Below, piece after piece: positions 44,637-63,989 of a stretch of DNA of 64,000 nucleotides. Positions within the stretch are counted from its first letter, which is position 1; the number at the start of each line of letters is the position of its first letter. The translations under genes were made by a program, and so were the position numbers. The notes below the pieces were generated by a model. That model made no database searches. It saw only the letters and a list, made by a program, of their open reading frames with translations, and had not been told where the DNA came from. This DNA comes from a virus, in IMG/VR virus record IMGVR_UViG_3300033752_000161, positions 458 through 64,457 of that record. The stretch is one strand, 5' to 3'.

Positions 44637-44825
44637 CTAATTTATCGATTTGTCAGCGCTAATCACGCCGTAACTCTCACGATACATCTCATCGCACCAA
44701 CCGCGCCAACAGTCCGCATGGACGATATCGTCCTCGTACGTCCGCACAACCTCGTCGCCTTCGCGTATGTCCTCGTCGCAGTATGCGCATAGGCACAAGC
44801 GGCGGGGCTCTATGTCGCCGGGCAT
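44637..44825 (-). CDS. Small Zn-finger protein
   Basis: CAYCDEDI...VHADC. Confidence 0.55.
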   Translation of the reverse strand: MPGDIEPRRLCLCAYCDEDIREGDEVVRTYEDDIVHADCWRGWCDEMYRESYGVISADKSIN

Positions 44826-45241
44826 ACCACCGCGTCCCCTTCGAACAGTTCGCGATTCATTTCGACGGGCAACTCGACCCACCGTTGGGCGGCGTGTGTT
44901 TGGCGGCACCAGTACTCTCCGAGCCCGCGATTCTCAAACATGTATACGCGGGGCGGCGCACCCTCCGCTCCCAAAACGCCAACGATATAGTCAGCGTCGG
45001 ATAGCGTATAGGGCTCGCCATTCGATTTCTTTGCGTTGACCACGAGGTCGCCCCCGCGATCATGCCGCTGCCGAATGCACTTTACCTGGAACGTGCGCCA
45101 CTCGCGGCTTACCGGATCTCGCGCAACGATATCGAACGCTTCGTCCGTATCGGTTTTGCCCGTAATCCATCCGTTGGCGAGCAGCGCAGTCCTTGCGATG
45201 AGCTCGGCGTGCTTGCCGACATTTTCGGTCCAATGCGCCAC
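44810..45241 (-). CDS. PD-(D/E)XK endonuclease-like protein
   Basis: GKHAEL, AFDIV and FQVK motifs. Confidence 0.6.
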   Translation of the reverse strand: MAHWTENVGKHAELIARTALLANGWITGKTDTDEAFDIVARDPVSREWRTFQVKCIRQRHDRGGDLVVNAKKSNGEPYTLSDADYIVGVLGAEGAPPRVYMFENRGLGEYWCRQTHAAQRWVELPVEMNRELFEGDAVVCPAT

Positions 45242-45453: not shown

Positions 45454-45501
45454 GCGATCGGATACGACGATTTCATCCTCGCTAATAGCGCTCGCCCTCC
45501 T

Positions 45502-46233
45502 TTAAAATCCGAGATTATCGGCCGCCGCGCTCTCTCCACCGCCGAGTACCGATTTATCGAGTCCGGCACGTTCGTCCGCTTCCTCGATGATTTTGCGCAA
45601 ATCGTCTTCTTCGCGGAAGTTCGCGAGTTCTTCGTAAGGGAACGCAAATCCAACGAGTTTCTTCGCTTCTTCTAGCGTGGACTCATCGTCGACCTCACCG
45701 GATTCAAGCGCGTATGACTTGCCATCGGCCGTTTTCTTAACGACAACCGCGTCGCCGACGAGAGTGTACGTTTTATCGAACTTCTTCGCGGCCTTTTCGA
45801 GCTTATCGTAATCCCCGATGAGGTTCGACGCGTGGTACTCTTTCATATCGAGTACGCGCCAGGTTCCGTATTCGAAGTCGAACACCGGAATCATAAAGTA
45901 GAGTTTCCGCTTGGCCTTCGCTTTGCACGAAAGGCACGCTCCGCCGTTAGGTCTAGCGTACAAATCGAAATCAGCGCCAGCCTCCCGCGGAGAATGCAGG
46001 CACGTATGCTTGCGGATAAACTGCGATCGCGTTGCGAAATCGCCGTCTTCGTGGCAATAGTAGAAGTACCAAGTGTCAGGATCGGCGAGAATTACGAATT
46101 GCTTTCCGCTTGCCATCTCGCTAGCTCGCACATACCGCGTTACGCCTTCCGGGAGCCCTTCGCTAAGGCCGCCGCCCTGCGCCGACTTGCTGCGCCTCTC
46201 CTCGCGTTCCTGCAATTTGTTGCGGATGGACAT
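45502..46233 (-). CDS. Putative single-stranded DNA-binding protein
   Basis: HTC...CLSC and acidic tail ending DNLGF; heads the polymerase operon. Confidence 0.6.
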   Translation of the reverse strand: MSIRNKLQEREERRSKSAQGGGLSEGLPEGVTRYVRASEMASGKQFVILADPDTWYFYYCHEDGDFATRSQFIRKHTCLHSPREAGADFDLYARPNGGACLSCKAKAKRKLYFMIPVFDFEYGTWRVLDMKEYHASNLIGDYDKLEKAAKKFDKTYTLVGDAVVVKKTADGKSYALESGEVDDESTLEEAKKLVGFAFPYEELANFREEDDLRKIIEEADERAGLDKSVLGGGESAAADNLGF

Positions 46234-46260
46234 CGTGTACATCGACTTCCTTTCGGTTGA

Positions 46261-46558
46261 TTTCGGGAAGGATTGCCTCTCGCCGCACTCCGGATATGCG
46301 GTTCGAGGGCTTACGCTTCGGCCTGTGGTAGTTAGCGAGGCCCTCGTAAGGATCTCTCGCCGGGTCCGTGGAACCTCCCCACAGTTTTACGTGCTCGACG
46401 GTCACCGGCGTCGATTGGTACACGGCTCCTTCCCGATTAGAGCGCAAATTTCAGCGCCCGCCTACGCGACACTAACGCTTACTTTCCGCATTAACAGCGG
46501 AAGTTCGGGGAAAGGCGCTAATGTCGCGTGGCCGACGCGGAAACCTCCGCGCCTTCCC
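46261..46558 (-). ncRNA. Candidate structured leader RNA upstream of the SSB-like gene
   Basis: Several stems: 46465-46528 with G-U pairs on the minus strand, TCGGGAAGGA/TCCTTCCCGA closing 46263-46436, CGAGGGC/GCCCTCG, and a possible CTGTGG/CCACAG pseudoknot. Confidence 0.45.
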
Positions 46559-46563
46559 TACGT

Positions 46564-46596
46564 TTATTTAGACGACGCCCGAAAGCGTGTCGTACA
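46564..46596 (-). promoter_or_regulatory. Phage promoter class A (TGTACG-N16-CGTCTAAATAA), abutting the cas12f stop
   Basis: Matches 31824-31856. Confidence 0.6.
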
Positions 46597-46597
46597 G

Positions 46598-47905
46598 TCA
46601 TTCCGCAAATTTTATCGCGTGCTTAACGCGCTCCAATTCGCTTTCGATGATGGACTCGATACCTGGCGTTGCGATATTTCTGGCCGCGTTGTAGTCTGCG
46701 TTTGTTTTGTATCCGCACGCCACGCATTCGAATTTCGATTGCGACTGCGTAATATCCCTATTTGCTTGGGCGATATGGCCGCAATTCGAACAGCGCTGCG
46801 ACGTGTACTTCGGATTAATCTTGCGCACGACTATACCGACTTCTTTCGCTTTGTACGTAATCTTCTGCTGCAAATCGTAGTAAGTCCACGATTTCAAAAA
46901 CATCGAATCCGCGCCGATTCCCGTTAAATCTTCCATCTGAATTACGCCGCAACCTTGCCGAATCGCCTCATCGACGATCTTTCGCGAATACCGGTGGTTT
47001 ACGTTTGCTTTAAAATCCTCGACACGGCCCCGCAGCTTTTCAATCGGCTGTATCCGCGTTGCCCTTCCGTGCCCAATACGCCCATCTCCGCAATGTTTTC
47101 CTTGTCGTAGCATTGCGTTGCGTCGCGCCTCAACCCTCGCCCGGAATGCGCGAATCTCGTCACCCTCGAAGAAATAGCGGTCCTGCGAATTGTTGTACGC
47201 AAGAACGGCCGCATTCACTACGCCCAAATCGATTCCCATTACGTTGTCTTGTGATAATTCTTTCGGCTTCGTTTCGTGCTTATACGTAAGGTTCACGTAC
47301 CATTTGCGCTTTACTTGGAGAACCTCCGAATCGCATAACGTGTACTCTCCGGTTAGCAAGCGATCGAATATCGACTTGGCGGACCCTTTTGCGCGAACCT
47401 TTACGGTGAACGACGTTGGCGAATCGTATTCCTTAGCGCCTTTTTGCGATAATAACGGGAGTCTTACCGTATAATCTCGTGCGTCTTTCGCTAATTTAAT
47501 ACCTTGCGCACGGACTGGAATTGGAACATCGCGTTTATACGAAGGTATCGAAGCTTTACCGGATAATACGTCTTTAGAAAGAGCTTTGAACCGCTGCTGC
47601 GCGTCACGGATTGCGCAATCTACTGTTCCTGTAGGAATGTGTGGCAATTCTCCCGTAACCAACTCATAGATATCCGAATGTTGCGTTTTTCGTCCTGTTC
47701 CTAGTGATTCAAATTTCAGTGATTCCCCAAACCTAGCGCGATACCCGAAAGTTATTTGCTGAAAATCCCATGTCATTTGAATCGTGCGATTATAAATTCT
47801 CCATACTGCATACTGAACATCTCTGAGCGTCTTACCCAATTTATCCCAGGTGCAGTCTACGGGGCAAATGATTTCATACCTCATCGCCTTTATATTAACG
47901 GGCAT
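46598..47905 (-). CDS. cas12f: Type V-F CRISPR effector Cas12f1 (435 aa), RuvC intact
   Basis: RuvC-I MGIDLG, RuvC-II IQMEDL, Zn finger TSQRCSNC...CVAC and RuvC-III NADYNAARNI. SIPSYKRD, GHGR..RI.PIE.LR, NHRYSR and WTYYDLQQKI match AsCas12f1 as recalled. GGAGG RBS before ATG 47905. Confidence 0.93.
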   Translation of the reverse strand: MPVNIKAMRYEIICPVDCTWDKLGKTLRDVQYAVWRIYNRTIQMTWDFQQITFGYRARFGESLKFESLGTGRKTQHSDIYELVTGELPHIPTGTVDCAIRDAQQRFKALSKDVLSGKASIPSYKRDVPIPVRAQGIKLAKDARDYTVRLPLLSQKGAKEYDSPTSFTVKVRAKGSAKSIFDRLLTGEYTLCDSEVLQVKRKWYVNLTYKHETKPKELSQDNVMGIDLGVVNAAVLAYNNSQDRYFFEGDEIRAFRARVEARRNAMLRQGKHCGDGRIGHGRATRIQPIEKLRGRVEDFKANVNHRYSRKIVDEAIRQGCGVIQMEDLTGIGADSMFLKSWTYYDLQQKITYKAKEVGIVVRKINPKYTSQRCSNCGHIAQANRDITQSQSKFECVACGYKTNADYNAARNIATPGIESIIESELERVKHAIKFAE

Positions 47906-47974
47906 TTGGTGCGAACCTCCATGTATTTTTATGTGCGCTTCACATTCGCACATGTTGATTTATTCGATTTTGTC

Positions 47975-48376
47975 ACACGCTCATTGCGACCATTACTTTC
48001 CGGACGGATACTCGCAACTAACGCCTACACGCTCATTGCGACAACTATCCGGTAAGCGACGGGGTTACATCGGTTCTCGCAACTAACGCCTATACGCTCA
48101 TTGCGACATCCATCGCTTTGTCGTACGACCAAACGTGTGATCTCGCAACTAACGCCTACACGCTCATTGCGACGGAGATTATGGGCAAGCGTTCAAATTT
48201 TCTACCTCTCGCAACTAACGCCTACACGCTCATTGCGACATTCGAACAGGAGATTGCCGGGGCGGGCGCTGAAAGTCTCGCAACTAACGCCTACACGCTC
48301 ATTGCGACGTTGAAAAGGCACGCACTCATTATCAAAAGGCACGTCTCGCAACTAACGCCTACACGCTCATTGCGAC
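47975..48376 (-). CRISPR. CRISPR array: six repeats GTCGCAATGAGCGTGTAGGCGTTAGTTGCGAGA (33 bp) plus a truncated terminal repeat; spacers 35, 36, 33, 33, 32 and 19-20 nt
   Basis: Repeats at 48344-48376, 48276-48308, 48207-48239, 48141-48173, 48075-48107 (1 SNP) and 48011-48042 (last base variant), with a 16-nt remnant at 47975-47990. Orientation follows from tracr pairing and the degenerate trailer. Confidence 0.97.
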
Positions 48377-48393
48377 GGTCCGCGCTTGCCATA

Positions 48394-48543
48394 ATCGCAT
48401 ATATTGCGTTAGTTTGGTTCGCGGTATTTGTGCGAACCGTTTCATCAGCGCTAGTTAGCGCTTCTACCTTATCGAGCGTTATTCGCGTGCCTGCCTATCG
48501 CCAGCGAACACTTCTCGATTTAACGCCGCCGAGCCGACGTAAT
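48394..48543 (-). ncRNA. Cas12f1 tracrRNA
   Basis: Minus strand AUUACGUCGGCUCGGCGGCGUUAAAUCGAGAAGUG...UAACGCUCGAUAAGGUAG...UGAAACGGUUCGCACAAAUACCGCGAACC mirrors the AsCas12f1 tracrRNA as recalled. Anti-repeat segments AACUAACGC and UGCGAU pair with repeat GCGUUAGUU and GUCGCA. Confidence 0.88.
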
Positions 48544-48572
48544 AGGTGGCGGGGATTCCCGCCTTCCCGCAT

Positions 48573-48713
48573 TTACGCAATCACCACCCCGCGAATCACA
48601 CCGGTTTTAATGTAATCGGCGGGATCTTCGTTCTCATCGCAACTTCCGTTATAAAGGAAGTAAGCGTCGACCGGCCGTTTCGGGAATTTCGCGTTGCGTT
48701 TGCGTTGTTCCAT
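48573..48713 (-). CDS. 46-aa peptide upstream of tracrRNA
   Basis: AAAGGAACGGTG RBS; MEQRKRNAKFPKRPVDAYFLYNGSCDENEDPADYIKTGVIRGVVIA. Confidence 0.55.
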   Translation of the reverse strand: MEQRKRNAKFPKRPVDAYFLYNGSCDENEDPADYIKTGVIRGVVIA

Positions 48714-48811
48714 CGTATATCACCGTTCCTTTATCGTAAATTAATCGTGAACATTTCGTGACAATTCAGTGAAAACTTGTCACACTTTTTATGGGCGCGC
48801 TTTAATAAGCG

Positions 48812-48852
48812 TTGACATTCGTATTTTTTTAAAATAAAATAACGAATGTAAA
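48812..48852. promoter_or_regulatory. Plus-strand sigma-A promoter inside an inverted repeat; possible overlapping divergent promoter for the CRISPR operon
   Basis: TTGACA-17-TAAAAT at 48812-48840; inverted repeat TTGACATTCGT...ACGAATGTAAA gives TTTACA on the minus strand. Confidence 0.6.
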
Positions 48853-48920
48853 GCAATATGAAAGGAATTATTTACCGGTATAAATCCGAACGCCATCGGA
48901 TATACTGAATTAATGAGCTG

Positions 48921-49056
48921 AGTTTGACGTAATGCCTAAACGTCAAATTTTAACCTAATTCTAATCGTTAGTCTAGCACGTAGTCGCCAACTCTGTGCTA
49001 TACTAACAGGTGAGGGTCGAATCAACGTCATGCCTAAACGCTGATTCGTTTCCCTC
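48921..49056. ncRNA. Candidate three-hairpin small RNA
   Basis: Hairpins at 48923-48947, 48967-49007 and 49012-49056; first and third share the loop ATGCCTAA. Confidence 0.45.
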
Positions 49057-49066
49057 GAAAGTAAGG

Positions 49067-49645
49067 CTACGCCAAAGCCTTGCTGCATTCCTTTTTGAAT
49101 CGTGTGACGTATCTTCTATATGATTCCGCTTTTCCACCGTACTGTTGCGCCAACAACGTAGCGATGGAGGAATCAATTAAATTTCCACGCGTCCACTGAT
49201 TCAAAATCATCACTTTTTTTGGATCGCCTCCCGCCAAGGGGGCGATTTTTTCTTTAAAAAGAAGATTTTCTTCAACAAGCGCCAACTTGTCGTCGATCTC
49301 TGGAAACACTTCATTCCCTTCGTCATCTCGTCGATAAAACTGGTAGTCGATCGCTACCCCGCGGCACTGCTTCTTGTACTTCTTCGTTTCCCTTTCTAAG
49401 TACCTTTTTATCGATCGGTCCACTATCGTCTCCAGCGACGACTTATCCGAGTTAAGCAATAGTACCGCAGTTTCAATTCTTTGGAAGCACCCTTCCTCGA
49501 AATTTGCGGTGTTCCGAAGTTTGTTACGGTTTCGCTCCGAGATTTCGTAAACAATGGATGAAAAATGCCACTTAATCATCCACATCGAATCTTGGCAGCC
49601 TGCTCTTGCCTTCTCGGCCAAACTATTCAATTTTTCTTTGTTCAA
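49067..49645 (-). CDS. Sigma-factor-like phage protein
   Basis: N-terminal LAEKARAGCQDSM (region 1.2/2-like) and a C-terminal helical DNA-binding segment; GGAGG RBS. Confidence 0.55.
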   Translation of the reverse strand: MNKEKLNSLAEKARAGCQDSMWMIKWHFSSIVYEISERNRNKLRNTANFEEGCFQRIETAVLLLNSDKSSLETIVDRSIKRYLERETKKYKKQCRGVAIDYQFYRRDDEGNEVFPEIDDKLALVEENLLFKEKIAPLAGGDPKKVMILNQWTRGNLIDSSIATLLAQQYGGKAESYRRYVTRFKKECSKALA

Positions 49646-49678
49646 TCTTCCTTTGCCTCCTTTTTGTTCCTTATACTA

Positions 49679-49714
49679 TATATAGGGCAACGTTTTTTCG
49701 AAATTGGGACATCG
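49679..49714 (-). promoter_or_regulatory. Phage promoter class B (TGTCCC-N16-TGCCCTATATA)
   Basis: 36-bp element repeated with one mismatch at 59659-59694. Confidence 0.7.
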
Positions 49715-49843
49715 TTTTTAAAAAGATTTTTATTGTGATACAATTTCCTTGAATCTTTTTCCAAACGTTGCCGTATGAATCAAATATAAAGTATGCCTTT
49801 ATGTTTGTAAAGGTTCTCCGGGATAAACGGGCGGAGGTGCTTC

Positions 49844-50044
49844 GTGATTAGTTTTAAGCCGTTATTCAAGACGCTGGTTGACTTGGACTTGAGCCTTACC
49901 GACCTTGAAAAGAAATGCGGCTTTTCCTCGGCAACGACCGCGAAATTAAAGAAAGGAGAATCCATGCGGCTCGATACGATTGAGCGCATTTGTATCGTTT
50001 TAAACGTTCCGATCGAGAAAGTCGTCGAAATCATCGCTGACTGA
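49844..50044 (+). CDS. XRE/Cro-like HTH regulator (YozG-like)
   Basis: ISFKPLFKTL...LDTIERICIVLNVPIEKVVE. Confidence 0.85.
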   Translation: MISFKPLFKTLVDLDLSLTDLEKKCGFSSATTAKLKKGESMRLDTIERICIVLNVPIEKVVEIIAD

Positions 50045-50067
50045 TTAATTATGTACGGAGGCTACCT

Positions 50068-50322
50068 ATGGCGAGATTGCGCGCCGGTAGCTGTCTCCTC
50101 GCAAAACGTCTAAGCGAAGCAGGCTTGACGCAGCAAGATTTAGCCGATCGCCTGGGCATGAATAAACGCCAGGTTTCCAACTATGCGACAGGTAAAATAA
50201 AAGAAATGTCGCTAACTACAGCCGTTATGATATCGGATATTATCGGGTGTAGTCCAAGGGACCTATATGAGTGGATCGAAGTGCCACGAGGGGATAAGCG
50301 CCGAAGAGGTAAAACTACGTGA
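50068..50322 (+). CDS. XRE HTH regulator
   Basis: LTQQDLADRLGMNKRQVSNY...CSPRDLYEW. Confidence 0.85.
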   Translation: MARLRAGSCLLAKRLSEAGLTQQDLADRLGMNKRQVSNYATGKIKEMSLTTAVMISDIIGCSPRDLYEWIEVPRGDKRRRGKTT

Positions 50323-50406
50323 ATAACGTGGGTTTACCGGCGCGATAGTCTAGTTCGAATTAGACTACGACTATCCATATCTCGCTGAACGCACATCTGT
50401 ACGCCG

Positions 50407-51498
50407 TCATAGCGTAATTTTACCCTTTGTCCCCTTTTTTGCCAACTGATAAAATCCTACACTATTCGACAATAAATGTAGTTCTAATCTCCTGCTTCGA
50501 CTGACGGCCCCTGCCACCTTTTCGCGCCCCTCGTTAACGTCCTTGTATCGACCGGGAACGGCCGCTATCCTCACGCTCATATACGGGGATAACTCCGCGA
50601 TAACCCTCCGCTGCCAATCGCGCCCCGCCCGATCATTATCGCGTATCACGATAATCTCCTCGATCGGGCTGCGGATAATCAAATCTCGTTTGGTCGCGGT
50701 AAACGCAGTCCCACCGGTGGCAATCGCCGGCATTCCCGCCGTCCACAACGTCATCGCGTCGATTTCGGCCTCAACGATGGCCGCCCGCTTGATTTTACGC
50801 TCATACACGAAATTTAGCGCATAGACCATCTCGCGTATCGGTCGCCCCCGCAATGGATTCTCGGTAATTATTCCGCATGAAGCGCAATTGTACACACGCC
50901 CCTTGCGAAGAATTTTATCGCTAAGGCACGCCGGGCATTTCGTTAGGTACCAAAACGTTTTTTCGTTGACCCTGCGGTACTTGACGTTGCCGAGCGATCC
51001 ATCCGCATTGAACCATGGGATCGTAACGGTATTGCTGCGCTGATCGTATCCGATTTGACATAGGCGTTGTACCTCCTCGCTAATGCCGCGCTCTCCGAGG
51101 TATGGGTGGCGGCGTTTATAAGCGTCTAAAAGCGTTGAGTCTAGCGGCTTATATCGTTCAGGTACCGTAAGCCTCATCGGACGCAAAACAGGCAAATCCG
51201 AAGGTTCTTCGCCGCCAGAATCGCCATATACAGCGGTGAGGTATTCTAGCGTTTCCTCTTGCGTTTCGTTGCGGAGGAAGGATAGAAGCTTAACGATTCC
51301 TCCCGAACGGTAATTCGGATCTGTTGCGCCTGAATCCGTCCATACGCCAGCAGGGAACCCGTTATACGGCTCCAAGCGGCACATAAATGACGGATGGCGA
51401 TCGTAGCGGAACGGGCTCGGAGCGATGATTTTGTCGCCGTGAAAATAAACGGGGTCAAAGTATGGCGCGAGCTCGGCGCGGATGTCTATATTAAGCGT
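50407..51498 (-). CDS. DNA primase (Toprim); predicted ACG start
   Basis: YLGERGI, IVEAEIDAMT, RDNDRAG and YKDVNE motifs; upstream frame IDIRAEL...SPFRYDRHPSF after AAAGGAGG-N8-ACG. Confidence 0.85.
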   Translation of the reverse strand, partial: TLNIDIRAELAPYFDPVYFHGDKIIAPSPFRYDRHPSFMCRLEPYNGFPAGVWTDSGATDPNYRSGGIVKLLSFLRNETQEETLEYLTAVYGDSGGEEPSDLPVLRPMRLTVPERYKPLDSTLLDAYKRRHPYLGERGISEEVQRLCQIGYDQRSNTVTIPWFNADGSLGNVKYRRVNEKTFWYLTKCPACLSDKILRKGRVYNCASCGIITENPLRGRPIREMVYALNFVYERKIKRAAIVEAEIDAMTLWTAGMPAIATGGTAFTATKRDLIIRSPIEEIIVIRDNDRAGRDWQRRVIAELSPYMSVRIAAVPGRYKDVNEGREKVAGAVSRSRRLELHLLSNSVGFYQLAKKGTKGKITL

Positions 51499-63343: not shown

Positions 63344-63419
63344 TGGTGAGCCATGAAGGACTCGAACCTTCGACACCCTGATTAAAAGTCAGGTGCTCTA
63401 CCAACTGAGCTAATGGCTC
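63344..63419 (-). tRNA. tRNA-Lys(UUU)
   Basis: Full cloverleaf, anticodon TTT, CCA encoded. Confidence 0.96.
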
Positions 63420-63459
63420 ACAAGATGGCAACCAAAATTGTTTGCCGAAAATACAAAAA

Positions 63460-63531
63460 CTGGGGATCTAGGATTCGAACCTAGGCATGACGGAGTCAAA
63501 GTCCGTTGCCTTACCGCTTGGCTAATCCCCA
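63460..63531 (-). tRNA. tRNA-Gln(UUG)
   Basis: Cloverleaf, anticodon TTG, no encoded CCA. Confidence 0.95.
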
Positions 63532-63539
63532 TCAATTTA

Positions 63540-63615
<76 letters not shown>

Positions 63616-63624
63616 TCAGGCATA

Positions 63625-63700
63625 TGGTGGACGCTGAGGGGATCGAACCCCCGACCCTCTGCTTGTAAGGCAGATGCTCTCCCAGCTGAGCTAAGCGTCC
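63625..63700 (-). tRNA. tRNA-Val(UAC)
   Basis: Cloverleaf, anticodon TAC, CCA encoded. Confidence 0.96.
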
Positions 63701-63761
63701 GAGCAGCAAATCAGCTTACAGGGTTAATGTTCCCATCGCAGCAAATACAATACATATAAAA

Positions 63762-63833
63762 TGACCCGTAGGGGATTCGAACCCCTGTTACCTCCGTGAA
63801 AGGGAGGTGTCTTAACCCCTTGACCAACGGGCC
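63762..63833 (-). tRNA. tRNA-Glu(UUC)
   Basis: Cloverleaf, anticodon TTC. Confidence 0.95.
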
Positions 63834-63839
63834 AAATAA

Positions 63840-63912
63840 AGCTTCCAACCGGGATCGAACCGGTGACCTCATCCTTACCATGGATGCACTCTACCTACTG
63901 AGCTATGGAAGC
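63840..63912 (-). tRNA. tRNA-Thr(GGU)
   Basis: Cloverleaf, anticodon GGT. Confidence 0.95.
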
Positions 63913-63913
63913 A

Positions 63914-63989
63914 TGGCTCCCCGAACAGGACTCGAACCTGTGACAACTCGGTTAACAGCCGAGTGCTCTACCAACTGAGCTATCAGGGA
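63914..63989 (-). tRNA. tRNA-Asn(GUU)
   Basis: Cloverleaf, anticodon GTT, CCA encoded. Confidence 0.96.

What the first reader, a model, noticed from the sequence alone, without database searches (positions are those of the whole stretch)
46598..48543. Complete miniature CRISPR-Cas12f1 system carried by a prophage (tracrRNA, array, cas12f; no adaptation genes)
Seen: a 435-aa RuvC nuclease with all three catalytic acids (GIDLG, MEDL, NADYN) and a Zn finger, a 6-spacer array and a tracrRNA with anti-repeat. All are co-oriented in under 2 kb between the phage regulatory region and the SSB/polymerase operon, with no cas1, cas2 or tnpA. Known: Cas12f1 proteins are compact, tracrRNA-dependent dsDNA nucleases with T-rich PAMs. 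Inferred: the prophage uses it against competing phages or plasmids, and it is a candidate new compact editor with its guide scaffold readable from the sequence.
Basis: partly seen in the sequence, partly recalled or inferred. Interest (0 to 1): 0.95.

Follow-up and report, generated by a model that had tools for sequence, protein, structure and literature searches.

The report
Prophage-borne miniature CRISPR-Cas12f1 system
A complete tailed-phage genome integrated in a bacterium carries a small, intact CRISPR-Cas12f1 gene-cutting system with its helper RNA and guide array, a new example of a known kind that also sits, unrecognised, in a cultured Bacillus phage.

Summary
Window 46598-48543 (minus strand) holds, in this order:
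- a tracrRNA (48543-48392);
- a CRISPR array (48376-47975) of six full 33-nt repeats plus one truncated repeat;
- a 435-aa Cas12f1 gene (47905-46598).

The protein matches PADLOC Cas12f/V-U3 profiles over its full length (E 2e-130). It is 44% identical to the protein of PDB 8j12/7wju (AsCas12f1 by my recall). It keeps D226/E325/D404 and the CxxC..CxxC zinc finger. The tracrRNA is homologous to the one at that reference locus, with strong covariation: 88.7% of cells paired against 34-42% in slid controls.

The record has no cas1, cas2, cas4 or tnpA. It is a complete provirus with terminase, portal, capsid, tail and integrase genes, next to a tRNA cluster. The host is probably a Paenibacillus.

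The cassette sits at the same place in the replication module of Bacillus phage Mgbh1 (gp53, annotated 'transposase') and of one IMG/VR contig. These form a well-supported Cas12f1 subclade.

I found no target for any spacer and no RNA data, so use against rival elements is inferred. A more distant prophage relative has a perfect spacer match on another contig of its own genome.

This is a new member of a known kind. Bacterial V-U3 systems without adaptation genes, and phage-borne compact type V systems, are already in print. This scan has also noted prophage Cas12f1 on other DNA.

The parts
46598..47905 (-). cas12f1 coding sequence, 435 aa plus stop (the maximal ORF runs to 47953)
   Evidence: ORF. 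PADLOC Cas12f E 2e-130 and Cas12u3 E 9e-127, both full length. PDB 8j3r/8j12/8dzj/7wju E about 1e-113. 44% identity to the L033 protein. Motifs.
47916..47920 (-). Shine-Dalgarno GGAGG, 10 nt before the ATG at 47905
   Evidence: Read. Homologues start here (P0001 covers 100% of the 435-aa query).
47975..47990 (-). Truncated terminal repeat (only the 5' 16 nt of the repeat), the copy nearest cas12f
   Evidence: Degenerate copies lie at this end, so the array is read on the minus strand from the 48376 end.
47991..48376 (-). CRISPR array: six 33-nt repeats (starting at 48376, 48308, 48239, 48173, 48107 and 48042), five spacers of 32-36 nt and a last 19-nt spacer
   Evidence: The repeat starts GTCGCAATG and ends TTGCGAGA on the gene strand, the same polarity as the repeats of orthologous loci.
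48392..48543 (-). tracrRNA: stem 1 with pseudoknot loop CTCG, two nested stems, a variable hairpin, a stem around ACAAA, and an anti-repeat (AACTAACGC plus TGCGA) ending about 14 nt before repeat 1
   Evidence: Model R1 hit of 126 bits, E 2e-31. Alignment A2 and RNAalifold: 18 of 25 pairs compensatory. Pair counts and controls.
48548..48563 (-). GC-rich hairpin (GGCGGG/CCCGCC) between the small ORF and the tracrRNA 5' end; function unknown
   Evidence: Read. Not reported as a terminator by the scan.
48573..48713 (-). 46-aa ORF directly upstream, same strand; no family match
48823..48852 (-). Promoter-like site (TTTACA, 18 nt, AAAAAT) that could drive the small ORF, tracrRNA, array and cas12f as one unit; consensus match only
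   Evidence: 5 sites found against 3.5 expected, so this is weak.

Best explanation
This is a functional-looking type V-F1 (former V-U3) CRISPR-Cas12f1 system. It is carried in the replication/early module of a complete temperate tailed phage, probably of a Paenibacillus, integrated next to a tRNA cluster.

Shown:
- an intact 435-aa Cas12f1;
- a tracrRNA homologous to that of the reference locus L033;
- a co-oriented array;
- no adaptation genes;
- the same cassette at the same place in related phages.

Inferred mechanism: tracrRNA, array and cas12f are transcribed on the minus strand, probably as one unit, because only about 14 nt and no leader separate the tracrRNA from repeat 1. The tracrRNA 3' anti-repeat pairs with each repeat. 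The loop of tracrRNA stem 1 (CTCG) pairs with the repeat 3' end (CGAG) to form the pseudoknot typical of this family. Cas12f then binds the guide, as a dimer in the solved relatives, and cuts double-stranded DNA that matches a spacer next to a 5' PAM.

Inferred role: the phage uses a fixed set of guides to destroy competing phages or plasmids in its host. New spacers, if any, would come through host Cas1-Cas2 or through recombination.
For: Protein:
- PADLOC Cas12f at 433.6 bits and Cas12u3 at 421.7 bits, both full length.
- PDB chains 8j3r/8j12/8dzj/7wju at E about 1e-113 over residues 17-438 of the 451-aa ORF.
- D226, E325, D404, C372, C375, C394 and C397 are invariant in 26 aligned relatives.

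RNA:
- 25 consensus pairs, 88.7% of cells paired against 34-42% when partners are slid. 19 pairs change on both sides. 0 of 500 shuffles reach the observed values.
- On 48 distinct model hits, 91.5% of cells are paired (that alignment is fitted to the model).
- The stem-1 loop and the repeat 3' end co-vary in the 7 loci: CTCG/CGAG, TTCA/TGAA, CCCA/TGGG, CCAG/CTGG and GTTCA/TGAAC (read).

Context:
- Terminase, portal, major head, tape measure, baseplate and integrase genes are present.
- Replication genes flank the locus.
- The record is classed a provirus, CheckV 100%.

Conservation:
- Bacillus phage Mgbh1 and IMG/VR locus L010 keep the order helicase, primase, cassette, neighbouring genes.
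- Window, Mgbh1, L010 and L040 form a clade with 100/99 support.

Family-level function:
- As and Sp V-U3 systems interfere with plasmids in E. coli (PMC7229846, passages).
- In genome G007, a spacer of a 39%-identical prophage relative matches another contig 37/37. The target's 5' flank is T-rich, TTTC then AA.
Against: - No spacer of this window found a target. There was no match in 50,697 phage records or 72,556 plasmids at E<=1.
- In 401 Bacilli genomes only chance-level hits appeared: 7 genomes, best E 6e-4 per genome, 20-38 nt.
- Nothing in the window itself matched beyond a 14-nt stretch.
- There is no evidence of expression. No RNA run is listed, which is uninformative.
- The arrays of Mgbh1 and MMB025 also found no target among phage records.
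- The last spacer is short and the terminal repeat is truncated.
- No promoter or terminator is convincingly identified.
- The host genome is not available, so host- or self-targeting and trans adaptation cannot be judged.
- Characterised relatives prefer 45-55 C in vitro (PMC8548392, passage). Activity in a mesophilic host is not known.
Confidence: 0.75

Rival explanations
1. It is a decaying or silent remnant. The cassette is inherited but no longer used, and the array is frozen and eroding.
For: The terminal repeat is truncated and the last spacer is 19 nt. There is no adaptation module. No spacer targets were found. Mgbh1 keeps only two repeats.
Against: The ORF is full length. All catalytic and zinc residues are invariant among 26 relatives. 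The tracrRNA keeps every helix and the pseudoknot complementarity. Five of six repeats are identical in their 32-nt core. The cassette is retained in phages whose flanking replication proteins have diverged to 35-57% identity.
Confidence: 0.1
2. The system is active but aimed at the host or at the phage's own programme. It might degrade host DNA, silence a host defence, or control the lysis-lysogeny switch, rather than attack rival elements.
For: The cassette sits in the early/replication module beside regulators. Spacer 2 shares 14 nt with 46449-46462, just downstream of cas12f (E 0.005). Earlier notes of this scan describe a phage dCas12f guide matching hsdR in another genome (e1-5840894, not checked here).
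Against: The nuclease triad is intact, so binding-only regulation is not expected. The 14-nt match has a non-T-rich 5' flank and may be chance. In the one relative with an identified target, the match is to a different contig, not to the prophage.
Confidence: 0.1
3. It is an IS200/605-type TnpB with an omega RNA, a transposon passenger in the phage, and not a CRISPR system.
For: Databases name the relatives 'transposase' or 'TnpB family'. NCBIfam guided_TnpB scores 196 bits.
Against: There is no Y1 transposase in the record. The guide scaffold lies upstream as a separate tracrRNA, not at the 3' end of the gene (one hit only). A multi-spacer array is present. 61 of 80 related loci have an array within 1.5 kb. 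The best profiles are Cas12f/V-U3.
Confidence: 0.01
4. Cas12f works with the sigma-like protein encoded just upstream (49067-49645) in RNA-guided transcription, as dCas12f-sigmaE systems do.
For: Protein Atlas places the 192-aa neighbour nearest to clusters of sigma-70 family factors (score 0.96; a lead only). A 33%-identical homologue holds the same position in L010.
Against: dCas12f systems lack part of RuvC and mostly lack arrays (PMC13472631, section 5). Here RuvC is intact and an array is present. Pfam gives no sigma domain for the neighbour. Mgbh1 gp52, at the same position, shows no similarity (E 14).
Confidence: 0.02

Closest known systems
AsCas12f1, type V-F1 (former V-U3): PDB 8j12, 7wju, 8dzj; genome locus L033 (G066:C78). 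The name As is by my recall and by earlier scan notes; the PDB titles say only 'OrfB'.
   Same: Size is 435 against 422 aa. Identity is 44% over 425 residues. The RuvC triad and zinc finger are the same. The tracrRNA is homologous, with the same helices, pseudoknot logic and split anti-repeat. Neither has adaptation genes (PMC7229846, passages).
   Different: The gene order is tracrRNA, array, cas12f here, against cas12f, tracrRNA, array in L033. Here about 14 nt separate the tracrRNA from repeat 1, against 137 nt in L033. The repeat sequence differs. There are 6-7 repeats here against at least 18 in L033. This locus is inside a provirus. It belongs to a different subclade.
Bacillus phage Mgbh1 gp53 locus (NC_041879, a cultured phage), annotated 'transposase'
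   Same: Protein identity is 50.6%. The position is the same, between the primase-side genes and the 'DNA binding protein' and polymerase. A mini-array lies directly upstream of the gene, with a 13-nt anti-repeat before it. It falls in the same 100/99 clade.
   Different: It has only two repeats. Model R1 finds no full tracrRNA in it at E<=0.01. Its publication does not mention this locus (PMC5135824 passages: 0 occurrences of 'transposase', and all 13 of 'CRISPR' refer to other things, mainly host spacers against the phage).
Other phage-encoded compact type V systems: Cas12j/CasPhi, Cas-lambda, Cas12r of Thermus Lalka phages, 'Cas12 hacker', and V-F1/V-U3-like effectors in landfill viromes
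   Same: The effector is carried by a phage, there is no adaptation module, the arrays are small, and the presumed role is inter-element conflict (10.64898/2026.04.20.719267, 10.1101/2025.01.20.633832 and PMC12607003, passages).
   Different: Those are other Cas12 subtypes, or were only placed on a tree. This one is a close, tracrRNA-dependent member of the well-characterised As-like Cas12f1 group.
IS200/605 TnpB with omega RNA
   Same: It shares the RuvC-TNB core fold family (Pfam PF07282, and PF01385 below its cut-off; NCBIfam NF040570).
   Different: Here there is no TnpA and no 3' omega RNA. A CRISPR array and a separate tracrRNA are present.
dCas12f-sigmaE RNA-guided transcription systems (PMC13472631)
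   Same: A Cas12f-family protein sits next to a sigma-like gene.
   Different: Those are nuclease-dead, truncated at the C terminus, mostly without arrays, and found in Bacteroidetes. This one is catalytically intact with an array, in a phage of Bacillota.

Membership tests
Type V-F1 CRISPR-Cas12f1 (former V-U3) | Compact effector (about 400-700 aa) matching Cas12f1/V-U3 profiles over its full length | tested here: met
   435 aa. PADLOC Cas12f E 2e-130 (residues 5-423 on profile positions 4-398 of 399) and Cas12u3 E 9e-127. PDB relatives at E about 1e-113.
Type V-F1 CRISPR-Cas12f1 (former V-U3) | Intact tri-split RuvC (D, E, D) and a zinc-ribbon TNB domain | tested here: met
   D226, E325, D404, and C372/C375/C394/C397. 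Pfam Cas12f1-like_TNB at 83.9 bits.
Type V-F1 CRISPR-Cas12f1 (former V-U3) | Adjacent CRISPR array, co-oriented, with repeat polarity as in characterised loci | tested here: met
   Six full repeats plus one truncated, 16-70 nt from the gene. Same polarity as the repeats of 13 other loci.
Type V-F1 CRISPR-Cas12f1 (former V-U3) | Long tracrRNA with an anti-repeat and a pseudoknot to the repeat 3' end | tested here: met
   R1 hit of 126 bits. Covariation. Anti-repeat of 9+5 nt and CTCG/CGAG pairing read. Expression was not tested.
Type V-F1 CRISPR-Cas12f1 (former V-U3) | No cas1/cas2/cas4 in the locus (typical of the V-U3 branch) | tested here: met
   No family match in the whole 64,457-b record. 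The host genome was not available.
Type V-F1 CRISPR-Cas12f1 (former V-U3) | PAM-dependent dsDNA cleavage by a protein dimer on one guide | not testable with these tools
   No protospacer was found for this window, so no PAM could be read. No dimer job was run.
IS200/605 TnpB element | TnpA partner or transposon ends, with an omega RNA overlapping the 3' end of the gene | tested here: not met
   No Y1_Tnp match in the record. The only scaffold-RNA hit lies upstream of the array. Transposon ends as such were not searched.
Provirus of a tailed phage | Structural, packaging, replication and integration genes in one block next to an attachment site | tested here: met
   PHROG hits for terminase, portal, major head, tape measure, baseplate and integrase. 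Polymerase, primase, helicase and loader. Seven tRNA genes at 63344-63989 beside the integrase. Classed a provirus, CheckV 100%. The att sites themselves were not mapped.
dCas12f-sigmaE RNA-guided transcription | Nuclease-dead, C-terminally truncated Cas12f with an operonic ECF sigma factor and usually no array | tested here: not met
   The RuvC triad and C terminus are intact and an array is present. The neighbour is sigma-like only by an Atlas lead.

The most novel reading that the evidence does not exclude
Cas12f1 is a long-standing, vertically inherited 'core' gene of a lineage of Mgbh1-like temperate phages of Bacilli. It is fixed at one site of the replication module. It is expressed as a single leaderless transcript of tracrRNA, array and cas12f, in which the first guide can fold in cis like an engineered single guide.

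Without an adaptation module, the phage carries a hard-wired, recombination-shuffled set of guides that it fires early in infection or induction against rival elements. Mgbh1 is a cultured phage with a known host. It would therefore be a ready native model for a phage-borne Cas12f, which the papers I read do not mention.
Probability: 0.3. Interest if true: 0.55.

Novelty: new member of a known kind. Interest (0 to 1): 0.35.

Why it matters
As an editor candidate, this is one more As-like Cas12f1 orthologue: 435 aa, 44% identical to the reference. Its guide scaffold can be designed directly by homology, and its PAM is unknown.

Biologically, the more useful points are these:
- This Cas12f1 subclade is tied to temperate phages.
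- The cassette sits at a conserved place in their replication module.
- The cultured Bacillus phage Mgbh1 carries an unrecognised copy. The natural role of a phage-borne Cas12f could therefore be tested in a real phage-host pair rather than from metagenomic contigs.

None of this changes what is known about how Cas12f works.

Tried and rejected
**Spacer targets.** I searched the whole array against phage records and plasmids in distant mode at E<=1 and got no match. Against 401 sampled Bacilli genomes there were 7 weak hits, which I read as chance. Against the window itself there was only a 14-nt match. The arrays of all surveyed loci against all fetched loci gave only near-identical sister loci, plus the G007 case. 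The arrays of MMB025 and Mgbh1 against phage records gave only self hits and chance 22-30-nt hits.

**Expression.** No RNA holder is listed for the locus (5 DNA metagenome runs).

**Laying four runs.** This gave only short unitigs that break at the repeats. One joint skips 334 bases between the first and last repeat, which I read as repeat collapse, not a variant. It told me nothing on spacer turnover.

**Rfam.** No family matched within 45500-50500 at E<=1.

**Second tracrRNA.** I looked for a second tracrRNA copy downstream of cas12f. There is none: one R1 hit in the window.

**Closer relatives in genomes.** 5 of 64 genomes of one order and 9 of 401 Bacilli genomes carry a homologue, none above 48% identity over its full length (a partial match in G007 covering residues 171-421 shows 53%). 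The 59-65% relatives come from assemblies I could not fetch.

**Is the whole family phage-borne?** Not in general. Of 20 flanking proteins from 11 related loci, those of L011, L012, L018 and L038 matched phage-type DNA-metabolism or phage-only families. Those of L016, L047 and L054 matched none. L017 has a transposase neighbour.

**Papers.**
- Al-Shayeb 2022 (Cell) is not held. I know it only through citing passages in PMC12607003.
- 'c2c10' gave nothing relevant among the 12 papers listed of 35 that hold the term.
- 'V-U3' with 'prophage' gave 3 papers, seen as a listing only.
- Supplements are closed. The sgRNA and locus tables of PMC7229846 and PMC8548392 may hold the exact reference tracrRNA ends, which I inferred from L033 instead.

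**Not run.** No structure or complex prediction, because the solved relatives match at E 1e-113.
Full report
**What is there.**

On the minus strand, window 48543-46598 holds three co-oriented parts.

The gene. The ORF 46598..47953 is 451 aa. The closest relatives begin at its Met17, and GGAGG lies 10 nt before that ATG (47905). The protein is therefore 435 aa. It carries GIDLG (224), MEDL (324), NADYN (402), CSNC (372) and CVAC (394).

The array. Directly upstream lies a CRISPR array. The 32-nt repeat core occurs six times on the minus strand, five exact and one with one mismatch. A reversed control pattern occurs 0 times. A seventh copy next to the gene keeps only its first 16 nt. With a 33-nt repeat this gives five spacers of 32-36 nt and a last one of 19 nt. 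The degenerate copies lie at the gene-proximal end. The repeat starts GT... on the gene strand, like the repeats of 13 other loci. The array is therefore read in the same direction as cas12f.

**The protein is a Cas12f1.**

- PADLOC's Cas12f (CAS-V-F) and Cas12u3 profiles match end to end, at E 2e-130 and 9e-127.
- Pfam gives the Cas12f1-like TNB domain.
- NCBIfam gives only the broad guided_TnpB subfamily; the Cas12f2 model is far below its cut-off.
- Among solved structures the best chains are 8j3r, 8j12, 8dzj and 7wju, at E about 1e-113 across the whole length. A preprint I read in passages calls 8J12 'Cas12f'. That these are AsCas12f1 is my recall, and is also stated in earlier scan notes.
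- A genome locus, L033 (G066:C78), encodes that protein. The window's protein is 44% identical to it over 425 residues, with the D-E-D triad and the four cysteines aligned.
- The same seven residues are invariant in an alignment of the window protein with its 25 best database relatives.

**The tracrRNA is real and homologous to a characterised one.**

In AsCas12f1 a 169-nt tracrRNA lies between gene and array (PMC8548392, passage). In L033 that interval resembles window 48543-48392 closely enough to align by eye.

- A 7-locus alignment (A2) gives a consensus of 25 pairs, 18 with compensatory changes.
- In a pair count, 88.7% of cells pair, against 34-42% when the 3' partners are slid by 1-3 columns. 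19 pairs change on both sides. 0 of 500 shuffles reach the observed values.
- A covariance model from A2 found 54 matches at E<=0.01 in the 90 sources I gave it. I left out L003-L009, L029-L032 and L101-L116. Of these, 53 lie on the strand of the Cas12f gene (the weak second hit in L066 is antisense), and the window has exactly one, at 126 bits.
- On those matches 91.5% of cells pair, with the caveat that the alignment is fitted to the model.
- The loop of stem 1 is complementary to the last bases of the repeat in each of the seven loci, and the two sides change together.
- The window's anti-repeat (9 nt, an internal loop, then 5 nt) ends about 14 nt before repeat 1.
- Rfam has no family for this RNA.

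**What is absent.**

No Cas1, Cas2, Cas4 or Y1 transposase family matches anywhere in the 64,457-b record. The control genomes gave hits in each of these searches. There is one Cas12f copy.

**The carrier is a complete integrated phage.**

- The record is classed a provirus with a CheckV estimate of 100%.
- PHROG matches identify large terminase, portal, major head, tape measure, baseplate, integrase, ribonucleotide reductase and methyltransferase genes.
- Around the locus lie a helicase loader, a DnaB-like helicase, an HTH regulator, a primase, a 'DNA binding protein' and a family A polymerase.
- Seven tRNA genes follow the integrase at the window's end.
- The named proteins closest to the terminase (80-86% identical) are all from Paenibacillus species, so the host is probably a Paenibacillus.
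- A P. macerans entry for the terminase (P0147) and one for a 60%-identical Cas12f (P0007) report the same longest-contig length. This hints at a related prophage there (not verified).

**Relatives and architecture.**

The best match among phage records is Bacillus phage Mgbh1 gp53, annotated 'transposase', at 50.6% identity over 97% of the protein. Next is Alicyclobacillus phage MMB025 at 39.4%, where a CRISPR is annotated beside the gene.

Mgbh1 and IMG/VR locus L010 share the window's gene order. Identities to the window proteins are:

| Protein | Identity to window |
|---|---|
| DnaB-like helicase | 35-37% |
| Primase | 38-41% |
| Cas12f | 51% |
| DNA binding protein (Mgbh1) | 57.5% |
| Protein of 44810-45241 | 34-56% |

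Cas12f has thus diverged about as much as the phage's own replication genes.

In a tree of 40 proteins, the window groups with Mgbh1, L010 and L040 at 100/99 support. I had dropped ORFs under 400 aa, loci after L076 and identical sequences. That group is sister (90/91) to L012, L037 and L038. The L033 reference falls in a different group.

Of 80 related loci with a long ORF, 61 have an array within 1.5 kb: 19 upstream only, 40 downstream only and 2 on both sides. The other 19 have none, and many of those are short contigs. The upstream order seen here is therefore a common alternative to the reference order.

A tracrRNA that abuts the first repeat is also common: 18 of 30 loci have a gap of at most 35 nt, some of them near-identical pairs. 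I therefore do not treat the leaderless junction as special to this window.

Phage carriage is recurrent but not universal in the family.

**Function.**

For this window the role is inferred, because no spacer found a target.

For the family there are two supports. First, V-U3 systems from two bacteria interfere with plasmids in E. coli (PMC7229846, passages). Second, I confirmed a lead from earlier scan notes. In genome G007, which carries an MMB025-like prophage, one spacer matches another contig of the same assembly 37/37. The target lies inside a DUF6744 gene next to a MoxR-type ATPase, with a T-rich 5' flank. That relative is only 39% identical to the window's protein, so it supports the kind of use, not this locus.

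**Comparison with what is known.**

- A landfill virome study places most of its virus-encoded type V-like effectors 'proximal to or with' TnpB, Cas14j/k, V-U1, V-U5 and V-F1/V-U3. [quoted passage not shown]
- A gut study lists V-F1 among the cas types in viral contigs (PMC12012184, passage).
- Many As-like orthologues have been mined as editors (10.1101/2025.08.14.670346, passages). That paper and PMC7229846 do not contain the word 'phage'.
- The Mgbh1 paper discusses host spacers against the phage, but not the phage's own locus (PMC5135824, passages). Of the six papers that mention Mgbh1, I read only this one.

So the system is a new member of a known kind. The modest new points are its fixed place in an Mgbh1-like phage lineage and its presence in a cultured phage.

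**Verdict.**

This scan had already noted prophage-borne Cas12f1 systems on other DNA.

Noticed in passing
window 49067-49645 (-): The 192-aa protein just upstream of the cassette has no Pfam match. Protein Atlas places it nearest to sigma-70 family factor clusters (score 0.96; a lead only). L010 has a 33%-identical homologue at the same position. Mgbh1 gp52, at that position, shows no similarity (E 14).
   Followed up: partly
window 46449-46462 and 46461-46490: The first 14 specific bases of spacer 2 recur about 150 nt downstream of the cas12f stop (blastn-short E 0.005). Beside them lie a repeat-like fragment and a 10-nt match to the last spacer. This may be a relic of an array unit or chance. 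The 5' flank is not T-rich.
   Followed up: partly
window 47921-47974; L010 4425-4480; L001 5945-5990: Between the last repeat and the cas12f start, all three related phages keep a similar motif: GTGCGAA, a few bases, AAGC, ACAT, then GGAGG. In the window it forms a 7-bp hairpin. It could be a degenerate terminal repeat end or a processing or translation signal.
   Followed up: no
L001 7400-7560 and L010 5880-6040: Downstream of cas12f, Mgbh1 and L010 share a conserved non-coding stretch of about 150 nt with complementary GTTGTGG / CCACAAC segments. The window's equivalent region aligns poorly (alignment A4).
   Followed up: no
L016 (3937-4071, 5653-5786, 7288-7420) and L073: Some relatives carry several tracrRNA copies around one cas12f: three in the Alicyclobacillus macrosporangiidus locus and four in L073. 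This agrees with earlier scan notes on multi-cassette Cas12f loci.
   Followed up: no
L035 2994-3030 and L125 1501-1537 (G007:C2:20796-20832): A spacer of the MMB025-like prophage matches another contig of the same genome 37/37. The target is inside a DUF6744 gene next to a MoxR-type ATPase. The 5' flank reads TTTC, then the AA shared with the repeat end.
   Followed up: yes
window 49844-50322 (+): Two small HTH genes lie on the opposite strand inside the otherwise minus-strand replication block. L010 and Mgbh1 likewise have small genes on the opposite strand there (in L010 one is a 55%-identical homologue of the first HTH gene). A strong promoter-like site (TTGACA, 17 nt, TAAAAT) at 48812-48840 faces them.
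   Followed up: no
L001 5770-5795: Mgbh1 has a 13-nt anti-repeat (one G-U pair) directly before its two-repeat array, and a hairpin whose loop holds CTCG. The tracrRNA model does not detect a full scaffold there, so its tracrRNA may be much shortened or rearranged.
   Followed up: partly
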